DNA of 64,000 bases, taken from assembly GCF_000218625.1 (NCBI RefSeq), contig NC_015672.1:1647451-1711450 (forward strand), given 5' to 3'. The notes beneath the pieces were generated by a model. The model did no database searches. It was not told the origin of the DNA and worked only from the letters and a program-made list of their open reading frames with translations. Positions 31,608 to 64,000 of the stretch are shown here, in pieces (the stretch's first letter is position 1; the number at the start of each line of letters is the position of its first letter). A program made the translations under genes and the position numbers. This stretch comes from Flexistipes sinusarabici DSM 4947. Its GTDB lineage: Bacteria > Chrysiogenota > Deferribacteres > Deferribacterales > Flexistipitaceae.

Positions 31608-32393
31608 ATGTTTAATACCACAACATTGATTGCGATAATTATTTTGCTTGTGTTGTCTTTACTCGTTAATATCCTTAAAATTTTAAGGGAATATGAGCGC
31701 GGAGTAGTTTTCAGACTGGGTAGGTTTGTAGGAGTAAGGGGCCCCGGGTTAATTATTCTGATTCCTTTTATAGAAAAACTTGTAAAAGTTAACCTGAGAA
31801 CCGTTGTTATGGACGTACCCCCTCAGGATGTAATTACCAGAGATAACGTTTCAGTAAAGGTAAATGCGGTGGTCTATTTCAGAGTCGTACACCCTGATAA
31901 AGCAATTCTGGAAGTGGAAAATTATCTGACAGCCACATCCCAGCTCTGTCAGACAACATTGAGAAGTATAATCGGACAATTTGAACTGGATGACATACTC
32001 TCCAACAGAGATAAAATAAACAGTGATCTACAGTCGGTTATCGATTCACAGACCGATCCTTGGGGAGTAAAGGTGAGCGCTGTGGAAATAAAACATATCG
32101 ATTTGCCTAATGAAATGCAGAGAGCAATGTCAAAGCAGGCTGAAACAGAAAGAATAAGGAGATCCAAGGTAATCAATGCTAACGGTGAACTGGAAGCTGC
32201 CGAAAAGCTTTCCCAGGCAAGTGACATAATGTCCACCAATCCGATAACCATTCAGCTGAGATATCTTCAGACTCTCAACGAAATCGGCAACGAGAAAAAT
32301 TCCACCATTGTTTTCCCAATTCCAATAGAAATGTTTAAACTTTTTGAAAAATTTATGAAGGATGATAACAAAGACGAGAAAACAAGAGAGTGA
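31608..32393 (+). CDS. SPFH/band-7 (stomatin/slipin-like) membrane protein
   Basis: N-terminal TM helix plus band-7 domain (VVFRLGRF...VITRDNV). Confidence 0.8.
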
Positions 32394-32510
32394 GAGAGTG
32401 AGATAGTGAGGTAGGGAAATAGTGAGATATTGAGGTAGGGAAATAGTGAAATAGGGAGATAGGGAGATAGGGAATTAGGGAATTAGGGAGATAGGGAATT
32501 AGAGATGAGT
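32394..32510. repeat. C-free degenerate minisatellite with G3 tracts ((A)TAGGGA(R)T / TAGTGAG units)
   Basis: About 115 nt immediately after the SPFH gene stop with no C. gggagatagggagatagggaattagggaattagggagatagggaa. Confidence 0.7.
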
Positions 32511-32804
32511 TTTAAATACCTTATTTCACAAACAGACAGAGCAGGACAGGTTTTTACCAATTAATAACTATGAATAAATCAAGTTTCGCACTTGCACATA
32601 TTACGCGTCTTTGTTCACCCTGTTAAATATCAGCTTCGCTGATTGCCTGTGGCATTTAACAGAGCAAGGGGTGATGACGACGAAGCAATCTCTCTTTTTA
32701 TATTATTTTGAGATTTCGAAACTTAAATAAATAACGATAAATAACTATATTTTACTAACATTGAACTTAAAATGTTGAACGTTGAACCTTGAACTTAGAA
32801 TATA

Positions 32805-32875
32805 TCCCTTAACCCATAACCCATAACCCATCACCCATCACCCATTACCCATTACCCATCACGGCATCACGGCAT
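32805..32875. repeat. G-free telomere-like minisatellite (CCCATAA/CCCATCA)n; complement is (TTATGGG)n
   Basis: aacccataacccataacccatcacccatcacccattacccattacccatcac. Confidence 0.7.
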
Positions 32876-32994
32876 CTTTAGATAAGATTCTTAAAAAAAC
32901 TCTTGATTTCAGCCATTTTTGTAATTATACATACCATTCGGGAGAATTTGGCAGAATGCCATTTTTTTCGTTATCTTGGGAATATAGTGGCCCG

Positions 32995-33098
<104 letters not shown>

Positions 33099-55700: not shown

Positions 55701-55797
55701 ATGCGATAGAGAAAAAAATGATTCATTAACAAAGATGCTGGAATATGAGGAAAACAAATACCTTCAAAATTACAGGAGGATTGAAAGCTATGAGTGA
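52780..55797 (+). CDS. addB: AddB/RexB-like helicase-nuclease subunit (no Walker A; RecB nuclease plus Fe-S cysteines)
   Basis: C-terminal PD-(D/E)XK (GRIDRIDQL...YKIIDYKTGS). Cysteines GSCPLRF...CRFCDYKEIC. Confidence 0.65.
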   Translation: MKSVLKSLENICSKNITKRKILVMPSYTEGLSLLNALALNNVNIANIKVETPLSLAKDISKMSLYKSGKDFLDRSSARYVVLNLFNQLLTENKLKYFQQLSPSVGVISELENVLYELRITDYTHINFPVNSFIDPEKEHDIKTLLQKYENYLENNNRIDEPGLYKHSIQMLQKDSFHKDKLFLIPANLELPLLSKSFISMLTKNNHEIIKFAQLKSLNVPENYYSNNPYSDTIDNCFSWLYELNNSENLDKNPGFEIYRAYGESNEAKKVIRVLKRDAINLDDAVIYTTSSQLYNQILYDLSCTYNIPMTFEEGISVSNTSPGKLLLSVLEWISEKYSVPKFCTMSTGGFFKFSNNEISPLKISKILKESKIAWGKKRYKKILENELTNTTNDYKIEILNVVLSELNSIFDEIPDTENTSSISLSEFSKGLVNILNKHTRIRNETDASALTTLTENLSNLADYSTQEFQEKEIIKMLKKLVYGININASSAKPGHIHVTNFQNGIWHNRKHNFILGLDAEKFPGKGGESPFLLDMEKERIGKIQTSIQRKSRNIYKMTELLANTNGKIYAMFTNYDTEAARLQSPSSLLLQIYRLQEKLDKSTPDKEHIESYLPFKNSEKEILDETELWLHKAFYSGGIKNNEEIFPSVYPVFNKGLFALSERQSSINEYNGCELNISDEIVNKLLYEKTFSNSKLETMGSCPLRFFFQHILYLKPLEEYEYDPWRWLDPLERGTLLHRIFELFYKELINKKEMPELDKHMGLLENIAKTETEELKDLLQPPSETVYESEFNEILDSCRIFLQKESTKLSKEGHPLYLELYFGNYPESEGSSFPTAVFTLPSGRKIQLSGRIDRIDQLNNGSYKIIDYKTGSTRDYSSNEYFKKGKQLQHALYSLAFEKLMGNKYKISQSGYYFPTTKGEGSEYMYPPSDGKHKREEVLEIVDILLDNIENRFFPPVKYDNKNDSCRFCDYKEICDREKNDSLTKMLEYEENKYLQNYRRIESYE

Positions 55798-58700
55798 TCA
55801 AGCTCTAAAGGACAGTCACGCAAGAAAGAAAATAATAAATGATCTTGATACAAATTTTTTAGTGGAAGCCGGTGCAGGTTCCGGTAAGACTTCAAGCCTT
55901 GTTAAAAGGATTACGTCTTTAATCACTAACGGAAAAAATAAAATCTCAGAAATAGCCGCTATTACTTTTACCAAGAAGGCTGCTTCTGAGCTTATGGAAA
56001 GACTTTTAAATGAATTGGAAGACCGACATAATTCAGAAACAGACCCTACCATAAAAGAGAACCTATATGATGCGATAAACAACTTTGACCAGTGTTTTAC
56101 CGGTACAATACACTCATTTTGCTCCGGCATATTGAGGGAAAGACCTGTGGAGGCTGGAGTTGACCCGGATTTTGATGAAATAGATGATTCAGACGAGTTT
56201 GGTTTGATTACTGAAGTCTGGAACGAGTTTATCAAGTCCACAAGAGCTGAGAATCCTGATATGCTAAAATTGACGGAGAAAATTGGGGTATCGCCTGAAG
56301 AGCTTCAGGATAGTTTTGTTATGCTGAATAAATATCCGGAAATCAAAATACACGCTGAAAAATCTGAAAAACCGGATTTAAAGCCTGCGGTTAAAAAAGT
56401 ATTAGAAATCTGTAAAGAGGCTTCAAAATACATTCCTGATGAAGAACCGGATAAAGGGTACGATGCTTTTCAGAAAAATGTGCAATCAACGCTCAGACTT
56501 TTAGAATATAGAAATCTCTATGAAGATAAGTATGCAATAGAAATATTAACAAAATTTGAGAAAACACCCAAAATAACACAAAACAGATGGCTTGATAAAA
56601 AAACTGCAAAAAATTTCCAGGATGTAATACTGCCGGATTTGGTTGAAAACACTGTTTATCCGGTATTAAGAAAACACAGGGAACATATTTATACTTATTT
56701 TATAGATTTTTTTCAAGATGCACTAACATATTATGAAAACAAGAGGAATCAGGAATCAATTCTGAATTATAACGATCTTCTGACACTTACCTCAAAGATG
56801 CTAAGAAATAATTCAAAAGTAAGAGAATATTTTCAAAATAAATACAAGACAACTCTGGTGGATGAGTTCCAGGATACCGATCCCATACAAGCTGAAATTA
56901 TCATGTATTTGACCGGAGAAGATTTAAAGGAAACCGATTGGAGTAAACTGAGACCCAAAAAAGGCTCACTTTTTGTAGTTGGTGATCCAAAACAGTCAAT
57001 ATACAGATTCAGAAGAGCTGATATAGATATTTATAACTTTGTAAAAGAAATTATTTCACAAACAGGCGGTGAAATACTCGAATTAACTTCCAATTTCAGA
57101 TCATTAAACAGCATAGCTGATTATCTCAATCCTGTTTTTGAAGAAAGGTTTCCTGAGAGTGGTGACAGGTATCAGGCACCTATGGCAAAGATCCGTGCAA
57201 TCCGTGAAAACAATTATGAACACGGTGTAAAAAAGATATTAGTCCAATGTGACTCCAGAAAAAAAGAAGATGTTGTTGAAATTGACGCTGAAAATATAGC
57301 AAGATATATAAAATATGCTGTAGACGGTGGAATAAAATTAGCCCGAAATGAGGAAGAAAAATCTAAAGGACTTAATGAGAAGCCTGTATATTCAGATTTT
57401 TTGATAATAACCAAACATAAAGATTTGCTGGAACAATATGCAAACACACTGGAAAAATACGGAATTCCTTCAACTGTAACCGGTGATGATTTTTTCAGCC
57501 AGTCAGAAGAGATAAACCATATTTATAAGCTCCTTAAATTTCTCAGTAAACCGGATGATGAGATACTCTTAGTATCAGTACTAAGAGGTATGTTTTTCGG
57601 TTTGAGTGATAATGACTTGTACCAGTTTAAAGCATCAAATGGGTATCTCAATATCTTTAGCAGTATACCGGAATCGCTGGATGAAAACATCAAAAATCTT
57701 TTTAATAACTGTTTTTCAACACTTCGCAAATATAAAAAGATTATCAATGAGTTGCCACCATCGTCAGCTTTGGAAACAATCTTTCAGGACTTAGGGATTT
57801 TACCCTATACATCACTGAAGAACTTATCAAAAAGCCGGGCTGCAAACATTTATTTTTTAATAGAACAAGTCAAACAGAAGGAAACTACCGAATTTTACTC
57901 ATTTGGAAATGTAGTCAACCATATAGGCAGATTGTTAGAGTCAAAATTTGAACAGAGAAACAGCCTCGAAGTTGAAAGCAATTGCGTGAGAATAATGAAT
58001 TTGCATAAAGCAAAAGGTTTGGAAGCACCTGTTGTTTTTCTTGCCCACCCTCACAAAAATACTAAACACGACCCAACTCAGCATATTAACAGACGAGAGG
58101 GCGAACCTATAGGTTATTTTGCACTAACTAAAAAGAAAGGGATACACCATAAAAAAATTTTTGCTCAACCTAAAAATTGGGAAGAATTCCAGGAAGAGGA
58201 ACAAAAATTTTTAGATGCTGAATTTGAAAGACTTGTCTATGTGGCAGCAACGAGGGCTAAAAATCTCCTTATAATAAGCTGTAAAGAAAAAGGCAATGGG
58301 AGTCAGAACCCCTGGCTGAGCCTGCTGGGTAATTTAAAAGATGACGATGTAATAGATGTACCTGATGTCAGTATAGAGCATGATTCAGGTGTAAATGAAT
58401 TATCCGTAAAAGATATAAATGATAAAAAAGCTGAGATCAGTCATTGGAGGCATTCTGTGTCAGAAGAGAATTATTCAAACATGACCCCCACAGAAGTAAA
58501 AGATTTGGAAAAAATATTTGCCGGTGAAAGGCTCGAAGGCGGCGGTCAGGACTGGGGTACCGCTGTGCATAATTTTTTAGAGTTTGCTGTAATGACCAAA
58601 GATACCGGATATGAGGATTTGGATACTTATATAAAATTTACTTTTGAAGAGCTGGATATAAGCTCTGACAGAACAGAGGAAGCTAAAAAAATAATAGAAG

Positions 58701-59038
58701 ATTTTAAACAAACAGACTTATTTAACCGAATAAAAAATGCCGAACAAGTGGAGACGGAAGCCCCCATTTCTATGAAAATTAATCCGGAATCCGAAATCAT
58801 GAATTTGTTTAATACTAAAACGAGTAACAAGCCTATAATCCTGGCAGGCGTAATTGACCTTGTGTTTAAAGAAAAGGACGGCTGGGTAATTATAGATTAC
58901 AAAACCGACAGAGTTAATTCCGAAGAAGAATATGAAAAACTCAGGCAGGCCTATTTAAATCAAGTGGAAATTTATGCAAAAGCATGGGAAGAGATAACCG
59001 GTGAAAAAGTAAAAGAGAAAAATATATACTTTGTATGA
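55790..59038 (+). CDS. addA: AddA/RexA-like UvrD-family helicase with C-terminal RecB nuclease
   Basis: Walker A AGAGSGKTS. Motif II LVDEFQDTD. Motif III GDPKQSIYRFRRAD. Motif VI VYVAATRAK. Nuclease GVIDLVF...IIDYKTD. Overlaps the addB stop by 8 nt. Confidence 0.8.
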   Translation: MSDQALKDSHARKKIINDLDTNFLVEAGAGSGKTSSLVKRITSLITNGKNKISEIAAITFTKKAASELMERLLNELEDRHNSETDPTIKENLYDAINNFDQCFTGTIHSFCSGILRERPVEAGVDPDFDEIDDSDEFGLITEVWNEFIKSTRAENPDMLKLTEKIGVSPEELQDSFVMLNKYPEIKIHAEKSEKPDLKPAVKKVLEICKEASKYIPDEEPDKGYDAFQKNVQSTLRLLEYRNLYEDKYAIEILTKFEKTPKITQNRWLDKKTAKNFQDVILPDLVENTVYPVLRKHREHIYTYFIDFFQDALTYYENKRNQESILNYNDLLTLTSKMLRNNSKVREYFQNKYKTTLVDEFQDTDPIQAEIIMYLTGEDLKETDWSKLRPKKGSLFVVGDPKQSIYRFRRADIDIYNFVKEIISQTGGEILELTSNFRSLNSIADYLNPVFEERFPESGDRYQAPMAKIRAIRENNYEHGVKKILVQCDSRKKEDVVEIDAENIARYIKYAVDGGIKLARNEEEKSKGLNEKPVYSDFLIITKHKDLLEQYANTLEKYGIPSTVTGDDFFSQSEEINHIYKLLKFLSKPDDEILLVSVLRGMFFGLSDNDLYQFKASNGYLNIFSSIPESLDENIKNLFNNCFSTLRKYKKIINELPPSSALETIFQDLGILPYTSLKNLSKSRAANIYFLIEQVKQKETTEFYSFGNVVNHIGRLLESKFEQRNSLEVESNCVRIMNLHKAKGLEAPVVFLAHPHKNTKHDPTQHINRREGEPIGYFALTKKKGIHHKKIFAQPKNWEEFQEEEQKFLDAEFERLVYVAATRAKNLLIISCKEKGNGSQNPWLSLLGNLKDDDVIDVPDVSIEHDSGVNELSVKDINDKKAEISHWRHSVSEENYSNMTPTEVKDLEKIFAGERLEGGGQDWGTAVHNFLEFAVMTKDTGYEDLDTYIKFTFEELDISSDRTEEAKKIIEDFKQTDLFNRIKNAEQVETEAPISMKINPESEIMNLFNTKTSNKPIILAGVIDLVFKEKDGWVIIDYKTDRVNSEEEYEKLRQAYLNQVEIYAKAWEEITGEKVKEKNIYFV

Positions 59039-59052
59039 GTTTTAAGAATTAA

Positions 59053-59067
59053 CGTCAATACCTGACG
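59053..59067. promoter_or_regulatory. CGTC-N7-GACG palindrome (cgtcaatacctgacg) after the AddA-like gene and upstream of vapBC
   Basis: Reverse complement of 52678-52692. Confidence 0.5.
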
Positions 59068-59163
59068 CAATCCTCTTTAATAATAATTTTCACTTGAAGA
59101 TTGCATAATAAGCTTAAAAAGTATATATTGAAGTATATACTTTTCAAAAAGGAGTTATTAATA

Positions 59164-59391
59164 ATGGATACTGCAAAAATATTTGAAAACGGAAAAAGTC
59201 AGGCTGTCAGGTTACCCAAAAAATACAGGTTTGACAGCGATGATGTGTTTATAAAAAAAATTGATGACATCGTTGTATTAATTCCTAAAGATAAAGTCTG
59301 GCAAATTTTTAGTTCATCTTTGGACAAATTTTCGGAAGATGTAGATTTTCAAAAAGACAATTCTATACCACAGGAAAGAGAAGAAATATAA
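59164..59391 (+). CDS. vapB: VapB-type antitoxin (AbrB/SpoVT-like)
   Basis: MDTAKIFENGKSQAVRLPKKYRF. Stop overlaps the PIN toxin start. Confidence 0.65.
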   Translation: MDTAKIFENGKSQAVRLPKKYRFDSDDVFIKKIDDIVVLIPKDKVWQIFSSSLDKFSEDVDFQKDNSIPQEREEI

Positions 59392-60271: not shown

Positions 60272-61819
60272 TAGTTAACCCTGAAAAAGGTATATTTTCT
60301 TAAAATTTGCCAATATTTTTGTTTATTAAATGTAAACTATACATATATTTTGGCATACTTTTTATCCAGAAACACTTCGTTTGCAAAATTTGCTAATTTT
60401 TTTGCAATATTATCCATAAATTTTTTGAGAAAAAATAAAAGAAAGGCCAGTATCAGCCTTAGGTTATGACCACTTGCCGCCAAAATTGCATTAGCTTTAT
60501 CTCCCTCTTTGCCTTTCAGATAATTTCTGTCCATCCGGTTATCTCGCTTAGTATGACCTATCGTCGCCTCAACACAACTTCGTCTTTTCAATAACCTCTT
60601 AAAATTAACTTTGAATTTCTTCATACTGCGTGGAACTACATGGACTTTTGCATCCCCTCTATAATTGTGCTTCCTGTAACCCAAATCTACCAATATCGTA
60701 TCTATTGTACCGTTACTACCCAAAAGGGTTTTTGCTTCACATAAATTCTCTTCTAATGTATGACCGTCATAAGGATTGCCGTGAAATGATTTGCAACTCA
60801 GTATAAAATTCTTCTTCAATGTACCAACAAAACCTACTTTGTTACCAAACTCATACCTCTTATGGCTCTTGCCCTTGCTAATGCACTCAACCTCTGGACT
60901 GTGAAGACTGTAAAGTTTGTTCTTGCTCTTTTTACTCCGATTCCACAAACTCTCGTAAAATAACTTTAGCTGTTGAAACTCATCCGAATTCCTCAATTCC
61001 TCAGGTAAAACCCTTTCTATAGAACGATATAATTTGCCCATCTTTGTCTTCATCTTTTTTACTGCCTTACCCGCTCTCTTGTACTGTTTCGCATGAACAT
61101 AGCCACTATATTTCATCAATAGCTTCTTGCCGGAATATTCATGTGTCTCCTTTAACCTTATCTCATGCTTCTTTGAAAATTTCACAAGATATTTGATCAT
61201 TGTATAAAAAAGTTTTATGTCCGTTGGAAACGTTATGTTCTTTTCCTGCACCGTCGTATCTGCAGCTACTTTCTTTACGTCATTCTTATTAAGATAACCA
61301 CTACGAAAAGCAGTGTTAATTGTCTCCTCTAAAAACTTCAACAAATCTTCTTCTTTTAAACGATTCCGAAATCTTGTCATGCTGGTTGGATTTATCGGCA
61401 CCTTTGTCTGGAATACCTTTTCTCCAGTGAAGTACTGCCAGTAAGGGTTTTCTTTCCAGCCATGCACCACGTCTTCATCACTCAAATTGTACGTGTATTT
61501 CAAATAATGAAACCCAACCATCATACGCATTGGAATTCCTGGGCGACCATCGTTACGGTGATAAAGACTGCCAAATTCTTTCTCAAAATATTCCCAGTCT
61601 ATTTTATCTGCTAATTGTATTAATGGATGTTTCATATCTATAATGTTAACAAGCAGTGGTTCTAAAAGCTCTTGTGTCGTCGAATCTTGCTTCTTAGGAC
61701 GCATATAATCCCCCGGGTTTTTTGCTTATTCCTTTACTTTTCTGTGGGATTACTTTAGCATATTTCCTTGGTTAACTCAAGTATTATCAAATAGTTATCT
61801 AGTTTCTCAGGGCTAACTA
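60272..61819 (-). mobile_element. IS5-family (IS1182-like) insertion sequence
   Basis: Terminal inverted repeats tagttaaccctgaaaaa (60272-60288) and tttctcagggctaacta (61803-61819). Single DDE transposase gene. Confidence 0.65.
60337..61704 (-). CDS. IS5-family DDE transposase
   Basis: InsH-N-like region (GRPGIPMRMMVGFHYLKYTYNLSDEDVV). DDE region (DLGY...NLRLIL). Confidence 0.8.
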   Translation of the reverse strand: MRPKKQDSTTQELLEPLLVNIIDMKHPLIQLADKIDWEYFEKEFGSLYHRNDGRPGIPMRMMVGFHYLKYTYNLSDEDVVHGWKENPYWQYFTGEKVFQTKVPINPTSMTRFRNRLKEEDLLKFLEETINTAFRSGYLNKNDVKKVAADTTVQEKNITFPTDIKLFYTMIKYLVKFSKKHEIRLKETHEYSGKKLLMKYSGYVHAKQYKRAGKAVKKMKTKMGKLYRSIERVLPEELRNSDEFQQLKLFYESLWNRSKKSKNKLYSLHSPEVECISKGKSHKRYEFGNKVGFVGTLKKNFILSCKSFHGNPYDGHTLEENLCEAKTLLGSNGTIDTILVDLGYRKHNYRGDAKVHVVPRSMKKFKVNFKRLLKRRSCVEATIGHTKRDNRMDRNYLKGKEGDKANAILAASGHNLRLILAFLLFFLKKFMDNIAKKLANFANEVFLDKKYAKIYV

Positions 61820-61885: not shown

Positions 61886-62121
61886 GTCGTAATCCCTTCA
61901 AAACATTTGCGCAATATCTCATCGCAAATGTTTCTGTTCAGAGCTTGCTGGAAATCAGGTCATTAATTCCAATAGTATATCTTAACTTAACAAATGGATT
62001 AGAAGACTTTTGTCGTAATCCCTTCAAATCAGGTCATTAATTCCAATTCGGGTGCTGCGTATTATGCAACTGCTCCCACGGAAGGGGTCGTAATCCCTTC
62101 TAATCAGGTCAATTCCGAAAA
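61886..62121 (+). CRISPR. CRISPR mini-array A: interrupted first repeat, one canonical repeat, degenerate terminal repeat
   Basis: 36-nt repeat GTCGTAATCCCTTC(T/A)A(A/G)TCAGGTCAT(GG/TA/GA)ATTCCAAT. Spacers of 38-39 nt. Terminal repeat degenerate (gtcgtaatcccttctaatcaggtcaattccgaaaat). Confidence 0.8.
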
Positions 62122-62318
62122 TAGGTTTTAGGTTTTAGGTTTTGGGTTTTAGGGAAAGCAGGGTTGCAAATCTTTCGAGCAGGGAATTGGCTTCGCCAAC
62201 GTATCTCGTCTCACGCAAAAAACAACTAAAGCTGAAAACAAATAATCTTTGAAATCTACGTGAACATTAAAAACGTTGAACATTGAACGTGGAACGCTGG
62301 CACGACAGTGCCAGATCT

Positions 62319-62774
62319 GTTGTAATCCCTTCAAAACCCAGCCATCATATAATCGGCTGGGTTTCTGGTCCGAGCTTGCTGGAAATCAGGTCATGGATTC
62401 CAATGGTATAGATAATAAAAAAATTGTCCATGTATTTGATATAGTCGTAATCCCTTCTAATCAGGTCATTAATTCCAATAATAAACTATCCAAGAACTTT
62501 TGGAATTGAGATAGAAGTCGTAATCCCTTCAAGTCAGGTCATGAATTCCAATTGGTTCAGTACAAAAATAGCCATAAAAAAGCCATTAAAAGTCGTAATC
62601 CCTTCAAGTCAGGTCATGAATTCCAATATCCGACCAAATTCCATGGTCGGAGCTCTCTTCAGCTATGTCGTAATCCCTTCAAGTCAGGTCATGAATTCCA
62701 ATAAATTTCCGGACTGAGGCAATTAGGATGGCAAAAAAAGTCGTAATCCCTTCTAATCAGGTCAATTCCGAAAA
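62319..62774 (+). CRISPR. CRISPR mini-array B: leader copy 1 (62110-62318), interrupted first repeat, 4 repeats, degenerate terminal repeat
   Basis: Repeats at 62319-62404 (86 nt, interrupted), 62444, 62517, 62592, 62667, 62740 (degenerate). Spacers of 37-39 nt. Confidence 0.85.
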
Positions 62775-62971
62775 TAGGTTTTAGGTTTTAGGTTTTGGGT
62801 TTTAGGGAAAGCAGGGTTGCAAATCTTTCGAGCAGGGAATTGGCTTCGCCAACGTATCTCGTCTCACGCAAAAAACAACTAAAGCTGAAAACAAATAATC
62901 TTTGAAATCTACGTGAACATTAAAAACGTTGAACATTGAACGTGGAACGCTGGCACGACAGTGCCAGATCT

Positions 62972-63433
62972 GTTGTAATCCCTTCAAAACCCAGCCATCA
63001 TATAATCGGCTGGGTTTCTGGTCCGAGCTTGCTGGAAATCAGGTCATGGATTCCAATGTTGAAGCACTCGGCGCAGTTCTATCTTTTGAGCAGAGTCGTA
63101 ATCCCTTCTAATCAGGTCATGGATTCCAATAGAGAGATTTCTCCATTTCCTAAATTTAATACAGTTGATGTCGTAATCCCTTCTAATCAGGTCATGGATT
63201 CCAATCTTCCGGAGGGTTTTAGATTTAAGTACCTCAAAGTCGAGGTGTCGTAATCCCTTCTAATCAGGTCATGGATTCCAATATATGTCGCCCAGCTCAT
63301 GGGCGGCAGGTTGCCGGAAGGGTCGTAATCCCTTCTAATCAGGTCATGGATTCCAATTACACAACTAAAACAGATACTTTGATTATTGTCTTTTCCTAGT
63401 CGTAATCCCTTCTAATCAGGTCAATTCCGAAAA
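62972..63433 (+). CRISPR. CRISPR mini-array C: leader copy 2, interrupted first repeat, 4 repeats, degenerate terminal repeat
   Basis: Repeats at 62972-63057 (interrupted), 63095, 63170, 63247, 63322, 63399 (degenerate). Spacers of 37-41 nt. Confidence 0.85.
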
Positions 63434-63630
63434 TAGGTTTTAGGTTTTAGGTTTTGGGTTTTAGGGAAAGCAGGGTTGCAAATCTTTCGAGCAGGGAATT
63501 GGCTTCGCCAACGTATCTCGTCTCACGCAAAAAACAACTAAAGCTGAAAACAAATAATCTTTGAAATCTACGTGAACATTAAAAACGTTGAACATTGAAC
63601 GTGGAACGCTGGCACGACAGTGCCAGATCT

Positions 63631-64000
63631 GTTGTAATCCCTTCAAAACCCAGCCATCATATAATCGGCTGGGTTTCTGGTCCGAGCTTGCTGGAAATCA
63701 GGTCATGGATTCCAATCTGAAGCGAATCAATTATATAAAAATTCTTTCTCTTCTGTCGTAATCCCTTCTAATCAGGTCATGGATTCCAATAGTGATGCGG
63801 GGTGGGTACGTCGGTTTGCATATCGAAAGTCGTAATCCCTTCTAATCAGGTCATGGATTCCAATACATCAAGAACAGAAAGCGCTGTTTGAAATGGCAGC
63901 TCGTCGTAATCCCTTCTAATCAGGTCATGAATTCCAATCAGGTTGCCGGAAGGGGCAACAACCCTTCCGGAGGGTTTGTCGTAATCCCTTCAAGTCAGGT
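63631..64000 (+). CRISPR. CRISPR mini-array D: leader copy 3, interrupted first repeat, at least 4 repeats; truncated by window end
   Basis: Repeats at 63631-63716 (interrupted), 63755, 63829, 63903, 63978 (truncated). Confidence 0.85.

What the first reader, a model, noticed from the sequence alone, without database searches (positions are those of the whole stretch)
62319..62404. Leader-proximal repeat of every array is split by a conserved ~50-nt hairpin-containing insert
In all four arrays the first repeat is gtYgtaatcccttc + AAAAC-hairpin-gtttctgKtcMgagcttgctgg + aaatcaggtcatNNattccaat (86-88 nt). The hairpin is cccagcc...ggctggg in B-D and atttgcg...cgcaaat in A, but the 3' tail of the insert is conserved. 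An insertion inside a CRISPR repeat that is maintained in every leader-adjacent position is unusual. It could be a cis-element for adaptation (integration-host-factor/Cas1 docking), a processing signal or a transcriptional element.
Basis: seen in the sequence. Interest (0 to 1): 0.7.

Follow-up and report, generated by a model that had tools for sequence, protein, structure and literature searches.

The report
Hairpin-split last repeat of CRISPR arrays
The 86-88-nt "split" CRISPR repeat is real, but it sits at the far, oldest end of each type III array rather than the leader end, and it carries a stem-loop insert conserved across related bacteria that most likely marks or caps the end of the array transcript.

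Summary
The sequence observation is correct. There are four repeats of the form 14 nt + ~50-nt insert + 22 nt, and the insert holds a perfect hairpin followed by a conserved tail.

- Modules B, C and D are 100% identical over 318 nt. The window therefore holds only two independent instances.
- The orientation is inverted. In ten related arrays, cas6/csm/cmr/csx20 or cas1-cas2 and a conserved leader sit next to an intact repeat at the opposite end. Transcribed that way, the repeat ends in ATTACGAC, a type III-like 8-nt tag.

The split repeat is therefore the leader-distal, terminal repeat. It occasionally lies inside an array, most simply as the scar of a fusion between arrays.

It is not specific to this strain. 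It ends arrays in three lineages (Csx20 46-100% identical). Its stem has four unrelated sequences, yet is always perfectly paired (116 of 116 cells; 6 of 11 pairs changed on both sides). The loop is always 11 nt. I found no copy outside CRISPR repeats, no Rfam match and no transposon hallmarks.

Best reading (inferred, not shown): an RNA element that caps the end of the array. It would stop or stabilise the 3' end of the pre-crRNA inside the last repeat, upstream of the tag. It scores poorly as a canonical terminator. Interest is moderate.

The parts
62319..62404 (-). Split repeat B (the finding). On the + strand it reads: 5' half-repeat 62319-62332, A 62333, hairpin V1 62334-62364, tail 62365-62382, 3' half-repeat 62383-62404. 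On the transcribed (-) strand it reads ATTGGAATCCATGACCTGATTT + CCAGCAAGCTCGGACCAG + AAACCCAGCC-loop-GGCTGGGTTT + T + GAAGGGATTACAAC.
   Evidence: covariance-model hit of 70.4 bits
62972..63057 (-). Split repeat C, identical to B
63631..63716 (-). Split repeat D, identical to B. It is the distal end of array D, which runs off the window at 64000.
61886..61973 (-). Split repeat A with hairpin variant V2 (61901-61933) and tail 61934-61951. It is nearly identical to the V2 copies in the related metagenomic lineage.
62087..62318 (-). Inter-array trailer module, also present at 62740-62971 and 63399-63630. It contains, in + strand order: a degenerate repeat (62087-62116); TAGGTTT x4.6 (62122-62154); a decayed copy of the insert (62155-62180); a conserved block AGGGAATTGGCTTCGCCAACGTATCTCGTCTCACG holding a mini-hairpin (62181-62215); a diverged stretch; and the hairpin CTGGCAC-GACA-GTGCCAG (62297-62314).
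   Evidence: It is homologous to the 196-nt tandem trailer units of L006, L009, L029, L034 and L053.
61974..62116 (-). Array A: 2 spacers, 1 normal repeat and 1 degenerate repeat. The repeat subtype is the one used by the metagenomic lineage.
62405..62769 (-). Array B: 5 spacers
63058..63428 (-). Array C: 5 spacers
63717..64000 (-). Array D, at least 4 spacers, continuing beyond the window towards the presumed leader
60272..61819 (-). IS5-family insertion sequence (transposase 60337-61704). It cuts the trailer of array A 66 nt from the split repeat. It is not part of the element but sets its left boundary.

Best explanation
The split repeat is the leader-distal (terminal) repeat of a family of type III-associated CRISPR arrays. 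These arrays are linked to Csm/Cmr, Cas6 and Csx20.

The arrays are transcribed on the window's minus strand. Read that way, the last repeat is ATTGGAAT..CCTGATTT, then a 50-52-nt insert, then GAAGGGATTACGAC. The insert has three pieces: a conserved stretch CCAKCAAGMTYGGANCAG, a 10-11-bp stem-loop closed by AAAC/GUUU with an 11-nt A/U-rich loop, and a short U run.

The insert lies in the middle of the repeat's most conserved 3' block (GACCTGAnnnrAAGGGATTrCGAC). This is just upstream of where Cas6 would cut to make the 8-nt tag AUUACGAC.

Shown:
- its position at the trailer end;
- its inheritance across three lineages;
- structural constraint on the stem;
- its spread by array duplication and recombination, including the three identical modules in this window.

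Inferred: the element works in the pre-crRNA as an array-end cap. The hairpin would stop RNA polymerase (weakly) and/or block the 3'-to-5' exonucleases that trim type III crRNAs. Because it splits the last repeat before its tag, no tag-bearing 'crRNA' would be made from trailer sequence. Internal copies mark old array ends that were joined to other arrays by recombination between repeats.
For: Orientation:
- In L029/L006 the order is PrimPol-Cas1-Cas2...Csm1-5-Csx20 -> leader -> array.
- In L036/L053 it is Cas6-Cmr1-6-Csx20 -> leader -> array.
- In L052 it is Cas6-Csm-Csx20-Cas1-Cas2 -> leader -> array.
- L055 has Csm-Csx20 -> leader -> array, plus a second array with its own leader copy.
- L008 has cas2-cas1 on the same side.
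- In every case the cas genes are on the strand where the repeat ends ATTACGAC.
- The leader motif (GAAGGGGGGTATC on the + strand, as searched) always abuts an intact repeat.
- Spacers as written on the + strand are purine-rich (0.59), like sense strands. Three overlapping spacers carry an RBS-ATG in sense.

Position:
- The split repeat is the last repeat in L006, L009/L033, L020, L029 and both arrays of L055.
- In L055 only the final repeat of 43, and of 14, is split.

Structure:
- There are 42 copies and 6 distinct hairpins in the first two lineages, plus 2 more in L055. All have perfect stems and 11-nt loops.
- 116 of 116 cells are paired and 6 of 11 pairs changed on both sides. 0 of 500 shuffles reach this, and slid controls give 28-52% paired.
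- Within variant V2 there are 4 loop variants and 5 tail variants but no stem variant.
- The hairpins are stable as RNA: -11 to -16 kcal/mol at 37 C, and still -4 to -10 at 60 C.

Directionality:
- Between the two L055 arrays, the part downstream of the hairpin has decayed (5 of 14 positions).
- The half-repeat upstream, the conserved stretch and the stem differ at 1 of about 64 positions.
- V1 and V3 also carry point mutations in the tag part.
Against: - By a d'Aubenton-Carafa-type score, every variant is negative on both strands (-10 to -34). The loop is 11 nt and the U run only 4 nt.
- The same genome has canonical terminators with tetraloops and long T runs.
- The 18-nt conserved stretch upstream of the hairpin has no role in a pure terminator model.
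- In L011/L036/L053 the repeat next to the trailer unit is normal and two split repeats are internal. There, 25 perfectly conserved repeats lie downstream of them. That is awkward if the element terminates efficiently.
- L005 and L007, from the same repeat family, lack the element.
- No expression data exist.
- The window's own leader was not seen, so its orientation rests on homology.
Confidence: 0.45

Rival explanations
1. Neutral fossil. An old indel with a palindrome arose in the never-replaced terminal repeat and was carried along as arrays were duplicated, transferred and recombined. Perfect stems are kept by templated quasi-palindrome correction during replication, not by selection.
For: - Terminal repeats are never renewed by adaptation, so they persist (established knowledge).
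- All split repeats keep the ancestral 'AAA' triplet even where the local repeat consensus has moved to TAA, AAG or GAG.
- The trailers are mosaics of repeat fragments and tandem 196-nt duplications.
- B, C and D are identical copies.
- The element scores poorly as a terminator.
Against: - Four unrelated stem sequences are all perfectly paired, and the loop length is invariant.
- The flanking trailer has diverged beyond alignment in L055 and partly between the window and L006.
- Substitutions avoid the stem and the upstream half, while the downstream tag part decays.
- Template-switch correction does not raise the substitution rate enough to replace whole stems next to a nearly unchanged tail.
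Confidence: 0.22
2. A protein- or RNA-binding module. The sequence-conserved 18-22-nt stretch plus the adjacent shape-conserved hairpin would be a docking site. It could bind Cas6, a nuclease or an array-specific regulator, or it could be part of a structured trailer RNA together with the two other conserved trailer hairpins.
For: - The stretch is 78-100% conserved across lineages while the stem sequence is free to vary.
- The trailer holds two further conserved hairpins. One shows a compensatory change, TCGGC/GCCGA to TTGGC/GCCAA.
- The trailer also holds short direct repeats such as CGTATCACG and ACGTRAA.
- The insert's first bases (UUCCA) can pair with the repeat's 5' UGGAA, which could mask a Cas6 binding site.
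Against: - There is no covariation outside the main hairpin, and the second predicted hairpin is broken by the observed variants.
- L055 has the split repeat without the rest of the trailer module.
- No complementary partner of 11 nt or more was found in about 0.4 Mb of related loci.
- No Rfam family matches.
Confidence: 0.2
3. Footprint or miniature of a mobile element, or an anti-CRISPR insertion, that targets this CRISPR repeat at a fixed position and blocks processing or transcription of older spacers.
For: - The insertion point is the same in every copy.
- The insert is flanked by AAA on both sides, a possible 3-bp duplication.
- Internal and even adjacent split repeats exist.
- Phage integration into CRISPR repeats and array-targeting Tn7-like transposons are documented (PMC11837452).
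Against: - The insert has no terminal inverted repeats, no second end hairpin and no associated recombinase.
- There is no copy outside a CRISPR-repeat context in the 64-kb window plus about 0.35 Mb of loci. The metagenome pattern did include 8 nt of repeat, so that survey was biased.
- Split repeats carry the ancestral triplet rather than the local one, which argues for inheritance rather than fresh insertion.
Confidence: 0.07
4. One reading: a leader-proximal cis-element inside the first repeat that guides Cas1-Cas2/IHF or marks the start of the transcript.
For: - The module upstream on the + strand is conserved between arrays and A/T-rich with short direct repeats, as leaders often are.
- L011 has two consecutive split repeats, as if one had been duplicated by a spacer insertion.
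Against: - All orientation evidence listed under the best explanation.
- If acquisition happened at a split repeat, new repeats would be split too. Yet 12 of 16 repeats in the window are normal, and hundreds are normal elsewhere.
- On the + strand the repeat would end AUUCCAAU, unlike known type III tags.
Confidence: 0.04

Closest known systems
Degenerate terminal (trailer-end) repeat of CRISPR arrays
   Same: It is the last, leader-distal repeat. It departs from the array consensus. It is inherited rather than renewed, and it keeps an older repeat subtype (AAA triplet) than the active repeats.
   Different: Instead of scattered point mutations or truncation, it carries one discrete 50-52-nt insertion at a fixed position. 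The insertion has a covarying perfect stem and is conserved across three lineages. It is also embedded in 196-nt tandem trailer units.
Intrinsic (Rho-independent) terminators and 3' stabilising stem-loops
   Same: It is a stable stem-loop followed by a U run on the transcribed strand, at the end of a transcription unit. An A run before and a T run after the stem resemble bidirectional terminators. The stem sequence is free to vary while the structure is kept.
   Different: The loop is 11 nt and the U run only 4 nt, and the terminator score is negative. It lies inside a CRISPR repeat. An additional 18-nt sequence-conserved stretch sits upstream.
Mobile-element insertions into CRISPR repeats (phage PhiAP1.1 integration, IS insertions; Tn7-like array-targeting transposons, PMC11837452)
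   Same: It interrupts a repeat. It is expected to prevent normal processing of the neighbouring spacer or expression of distal spacers.
   Different: It is only about 50 nt and has no recombinase, no inverted ends and no copies elsewhere. According to that paper, the Tn7-like elements insert in spacers, not repeats.
Leader-repeat junction elements (IHF sites, leader-anchoring sequences)
   Same: It is a cis-element physically tied to one particular repeat of the array.
   Different: It lies at the opposite end of the array, and the leader-adjacent repeat is intact in all related arrays.
crRNA-like regulatory RNAs and mini-arrays with degenerate repeats (CreA-type; from my own knowledge, not tested against a paper here)
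   Same: Partial repeats flank a fixed, non-spacer sequence next to a CRISPR-cas locus. Here that sequence is the 124-nt unit core, lying between a full and a 5'-truncated repeat.
   Different: No complementarity to cas promoters or other loci was found. The fixed sequence is far longer than a guide and is internally structured.

Membership tests
Leader-proximal CRISPR repeat / leader element | Lies at the end of the array next to the leader, usually on the cas-gene side and upstream in the direction of transcription | tested here: not met
   In 10 related arrays the leader and cas genes lie at the end opposite the split repeat.
Leader-proximal CRISPR repeat / leader element | Is the repeat copied at each spacer acquisition, so younger repeats resemble it | tested here: not met
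   Normal repeats lack the insert and carry different triplet subtypes.
Terminal (trailer-end) CRISPR repeat | Is the last repeat, distal to the leader, followed by non-CRISPR sequence | tested here: met
   L055 arrays 1 and 2, L006, L009, L020 and L029. In the window this is inferred by homology because the leader is outside it.
Terminal (trailer-end) CRISPR repeat | Shows unconstrained decay (the usual assumption) | tested here: not met
   The stem is perfectly kept through four sequence variants. Only the part downstream of the hairpin decays.
Type III CRISPR array | Associated with Cas10-type effector genes and Cas6 | tested here: met
   Csm1-5, Cmr1-6, Cas6 and Csx20 lie next to arrays of the same repeat in L029, L036/L053, L052 and L055. 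The window itself holds no cas genes.
Type III CRISPR array | Repeat 3' end yields an 8-nt crRNA tag | tested here: inconclusive
   The repeat ends ATTACGAC (ATTGCGAC in L007). It resembles the known tag AUUGCGAC as I recall it. No RNA data are available.
Intrinsic terminator | G+C-rich stem, short loop (3-8 nt) and a U tract of about 6 or more | tested here: not met
   The stem is adequate (-11 to -16 kcal/mol). The loop is 11 nt and the U run 4 nt. The score is negative on both strands, and the consensus scan does not call it.
MITE / IS-derived element | Terminal inverted repeats and a target-site duplication | tested here: not met
   The ends ACATTTG... and ...GCTTGCTGG are not inverted repeats. 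Only an ambiguous AAA is duplicated.
MITE / IS-derived element | Multiple copies at unrelated genomic sites | tested here: not met
   There is none outside CRISPR repeats in about 0.4 Mb.
Any described RNA family (Rfam 15) | Match at or near the gathering score | tested here: not met
   The only hit is a chance match to mir-221 at E = 0.93.

The most novel reading that the evidence does not exclude
A dedicated 'array-end cassette' lives inside the last CRISPR repeat of a family of type III arrays. It would be a selected RNA module, made of a conserved single-stranded stretch plus a hairpin that is free in sequence but fixed in shape. It would define where pre-crRNA ends, protect that end, and prevent trailer RNA from being tagged and loaded. 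It could move between repeats by gene conversion, and so delimit which part of an array is expressed.
Probability: 0.2. Interest if true: 0.6.

Novelty: new variant of a known kind. Interest (0 to 1): 0.42.

Why it matters
The distal end of CRISPR arrays is usually dismissed as decaying junk. Here, a fixed-position structured insertion in the last repeat is kept across lineages that have replaced all their spacers, their active repeat subtype and even their trailers. This suggests that some type III arrays have a defined, selected 'stop' element.

If confirmed, it would bear on three questions:
- how pre-crRNA 3' ends are made and protected before exonucleolytic trimming;
- whether cells avoid loading trailer-derived RNAs;
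- how arrays fuse and split over time, since internal copies would serve as scars of past fusions.

There is also a practical point. The element inverts the naive orientation call for these arrays, which matters for spacer-target strand assignment in type III systems.

Tried and rejected
- **Extending the window to see its leader.** Exact-protein look-ups of the last genes gave contigs that stop at the IS element, or only short IS contigs. The Flexistipes Csx20 (P0004) is not on record.
- **Viral scans.** Scans for the repeat and for two multiply targeted protospacers found nothing.
- **Promoters.** The consensus scan gave nothing above shuffles around the arrays or in the L006 leader. I therefore make no promoter claim.
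- **A -10 box in the hairpin loop.** TATAAT-like hexamers occur, but on inconsistent strands and in A/T-rich loops. Rejected.
- **A second hairpin joining the tail to the 3' half-repeat.** It is predicted, but the natural variants break it. Rejected.
- **Small ORFs.** An ATG in the loop, and an ATG in the trailer hairpin, are not conserved between variants or in the window. Rejected by reading.
- **Hammerhead or other small ribozymes.** The core motifs are absent and there is no Rfam hit.
- **Integron attC-like site.** Only AAC...GTT is shared, the element is too short and no integrase is present. Rejected.
- **Aberrant spacer integration.** There is no 36-bp duplication and the insert is longer than any spacer. 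Rejected.
- **MAFFT alignments of the variants.** They put the stems out of register. I replaced them with a covariance-model alignment.
- **Stop-free-frame test of spacer orientation.** Uninformative.
- **Other Csx20 loci (L045-L051, L056-L061).** They had no adjacent array.

Full report
**1. Observation**

The right end of the window holds four CRISPR arrays with the 36-nt repeat GTCGTAATCCCTTCTAATCAGGTCATGGATTCCAAT. The repeat occurs 12 times within 3 mismatches, against none expected by chance. At the left end of each array there is an 86-88-nt unit in which the repeat is split after its 14th base. The coordinates are 61886-61973 (A), 62319-62404 (B), 62972-63057 (C) and 63631-63716 (D).

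The insert reads A + AAAC-stem-loop-stem-GTTT + CTGKTCMGAGCTTGCTGG.

One premise is wrong, however. The 318 nt from the degenerate repeat through the split repeat are identical, with 0 mismatches, in B, C and D. The window therefore offers two independent instances, A and B/C/D, not four.

No cas genes or tRNAs lie in the window. The neighbours are AddAB-like genes, a VapBC pair and an IS5-family element at 60272-61819, which ends 66 nt from split repeat A.

**2. Which end is the leader?**

A genome-collection scan with the repeat and a metagenome scan with the insert/repeat junction brought in related arrays. I also fetched loci around Csx20 homologues. The layout is always the same.

- The cas genes sit on one strand: PrimPol-Cas1-Cas2...Csm1-5-Csx20 in L029/L006, Cas6-Cmr1-6-Csx20 in L036/L053, Cas6-Csm-Csx20-Cas1-Cas2 in L052, and Csm-Csx20 in L055.
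- Next comes a conserved leader. On the transcribed strand it contains ..GATACCCCCCTTCC...
- Next comes an intact repeat that reads ATTGGAAT...GAAGGGATTACGAC on that same strand.

Further evidence agrees with this orientation:
- L008 has cas2-cas1 on the same side.
- The repeat's 3' block GACCTGAnnnrAAGGGATTrCGAC is the part conserved across the window, L005, L007, L052 and L055. Its last 8 nt resemble known type III tags, as far as I recall them.
- Spacers as written on the window's + strand are purine-rich (0.59). Three overlapping spacers carry an RBS plus ATG in sense, as expected if the crRNA is the complement.

Relative to the window, transcription therefore runs on the minus strand. The leader of array D lies beyond position 64000, and the split repeat is the last repeat, not the first.

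The clearest cases are the two arrays of L055, with 43 and 14 repeats, each with its own leader. In both, only the final repeat is split, and it is followed directly by unrelated DNA.

**3. Anatomy on the transcribed strand**

The unit reads, in order:
1. the last spacer;
2. ATTGGAAT..CCTGATTT, the first 22 nt of the repeat;
3. CCAKCAAGMTYGGANCAG;
4. AAAC-stem, an 11-nt loop, stem-GUUU;
5. U;
6. GAAGGGATTACGAC, the last 14 nt of the repeat, including the tag.

In the window's lineage and in the L006/L029/L053 lineage, a trailer module follows. It holds a hairpin (CTGGCAC..GTGCCAG), a diverged stretch, a conserved 35-nt block with a mini-hairpin, another (often decayed) copy of the split repeat, and a 7-nt tandem repeat.

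In the metagenomic lineage this module is a 196-nt unit repeated 1-5 times in tandem. L055 has the split repeat without that module.

**4. Is the hairpin constrained?**

Forty-two copies in the first two lineages give six distinct hairpins, and L055 adds two more. The central stems are CCAGCC, ATTTGCG, ATCGGG and ATTTGC, each with its complement. All are perfectly paired over 10-11 bp, and the loop is 11 nt in every case.

On a covariance-model alignment, 116 of 116 cells form standard pairs, and 6 of 11 pairs show changes on both sides. No shuffle out of 500 reaches these values, and sliding the partners gives 28-52% pairing. That alignment is fitted to the model, but the stems are gap-free and unambiguous by eye.

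Within variant V2 there are four loop variants and five tail variants, but no stem variant.

Between the two L055 arrays, the half-repeat, the conserved stretch and the stem differ at 1 of about 64 positions. The 14 nt downstream of the hairpin differ at 5.

The structure is thus maintained. The part that follows it in the direction of transcription looks dispensable.

**5. What it is not**

- *Not a known RNA family.* There is no Rfam match.
- *Not a detectable mobile element.* No copy of the insert lies outside a CRISPR-repeat context in the window plus about 0.35 Mb of loci. It has no inverted ends and no recombinase. Every split repeat keeps the same 'AAA' triplet even where the local repeats have TAA, AAG or GAG. 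This argues for inheritance of one old event rather than repeated insertion.
- *Not a canonical intrinsic terminator.* With an 11-nt loop and four U, all variants score negative on both strands. The genome does have textbook terminators, for example at 40459-40442. The hairpins are nevertheless as stable as that terminator and persist at 50-60 C.

**6. Internal copies and the window's tandem layout**

L009/L033 have one internal split repeat. L011/L036/L053 have two adjacent ones, with 13 normal repeats on the leader side and 25 on the distal side.

Both halves of a split repeat match normal repeats. Recombination between the terminal repeat of one array and a repeat of another would therefore join the arrays and leave the split repeat inside. 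This is inference.

The window looks like three such joins: D, C, B and A, each keeping its trailer module. Consistent with once-separate active arrays, spacers in arrays C and D tile a single ~90-nt target.

**7. Mechanism**

The most economical reading places the function in the pre-crRNA. A stable stem-loop inside the last repeat, upstream of the Cas6 site, would do one or more of three things:
- end or pause transcription;
- shield the 3' end from the exonucleases that trim type III crRNAs;
- stop trailer RNA from receiving a tag.

This is inferred from position, strand, structural constraint and the decay pattern. No step is shown experimentally.

Three observations remain unexplained by it:
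- the conserved 18-nt stretch;
- the poor terminator score;
- the intact repeats distal to internal copies.

For this reason I keep three rivals open: a neutral-fossil reading, a protein-binding reading and, with low weight, a mobile-element reading. The leader/adaptation model is essentially excluded.

**8. Novelty**

I found no description of this repeat or of a structured insertion in terminal repeats in the searchable literature. Insertions of phages and transposons into arrays are known.

I file it as a new variant of the known 'degenerate terminal repeat' phenomenon. It is of moderate interest, mainly because it suggests that array ends can carry a selected element.

Noticed in passing
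window 63206-63246, 63283-63321 (array C) and 63939-63977 (array D): Three spacers from two different arrays overlap end to end and tile one ~90-nt target, all in the same orientation. The target contains a hairpin, CCGGAAGGG..CCCTTCCGG, followed by a T-rich stretch. No match to it was found in viral contigs or in the window.
   Followed up: partly
L009 (oriented) 589, L011 1321, L029 (oriented) 860: Three different arrays of the related lineage each hold a distinct spacer overlapping the same RBS-ATG region (aaaggaggtaacaaaatgagaaaaataaca). This points to repeated acquisition from one transcript start.
   Followed up: partly
window 60272-61819: An IS5-family element (455-aa transposase, PF05598) is inserted 66 nt from split repeat A. 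Another copy of the same IS in a metagenome (L039) is flanked by GTTCAAGG/GTTCAACG short repeats that resemble the CRISPR trailer.
   Followed up: partly
L006, L009, L020, L029, L034, L053 trailers: The array trailer is a 196-nt unit repeated 1-5 times head to tail. The unit consists of a half-repeat, the insert, 8 nt of repeat and a 124-nt core. One older unit lacks the insert (L037 6806 / L053 13816).
   Followed up: yes
window 62122-62154, 62775-62807, 63434-63466; also 32392-32497 and 32802-32859: Short 7-8-nt tandem repeats occur in two places. (TAGGTTT)n lies in each trailer module; the related lineage has (GGTAGAG)n at the same place. Separately, (GAGATAGG)x13 and (ATAACCC)x8 lie just upstream of the SRP RNA gene (32993-33091).
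   Followed up: no
L029 3-2550 (locus + strand): A CRISPR-associated primase-polymerase gene lies directly upstream of cas1-cas2 in the type III-A locus that uses this repeat.
   Followed up: no
L055 7346-9433 and L051 7355-9433: Type III-A loci of this family encode a large protein with an adenosine-deaminase domain (with a CARF-like Cas_NE0113 domain in L055), together with Card1-like nucleases. L051 additionally has a SAVED-domain protein.
   Followed up: no
L001/L002 2467-9210 compared with window 55745-59391: Related strains carry a three-gene insertion between the addA-like gene and the vapBC pair: an unknown gene, a PLD-like nuclease and a SNF2/ResIII helicase. The insertion is absent from the window and looks like a variable defence islet.
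   Followed up: no
L055 15560-15865: The second array of L055 is preceded by a near-exact copy of the end of csx20 plus the leader. Whole leader-array units are therefore duplicated in these genomes.
   Followed up: partly
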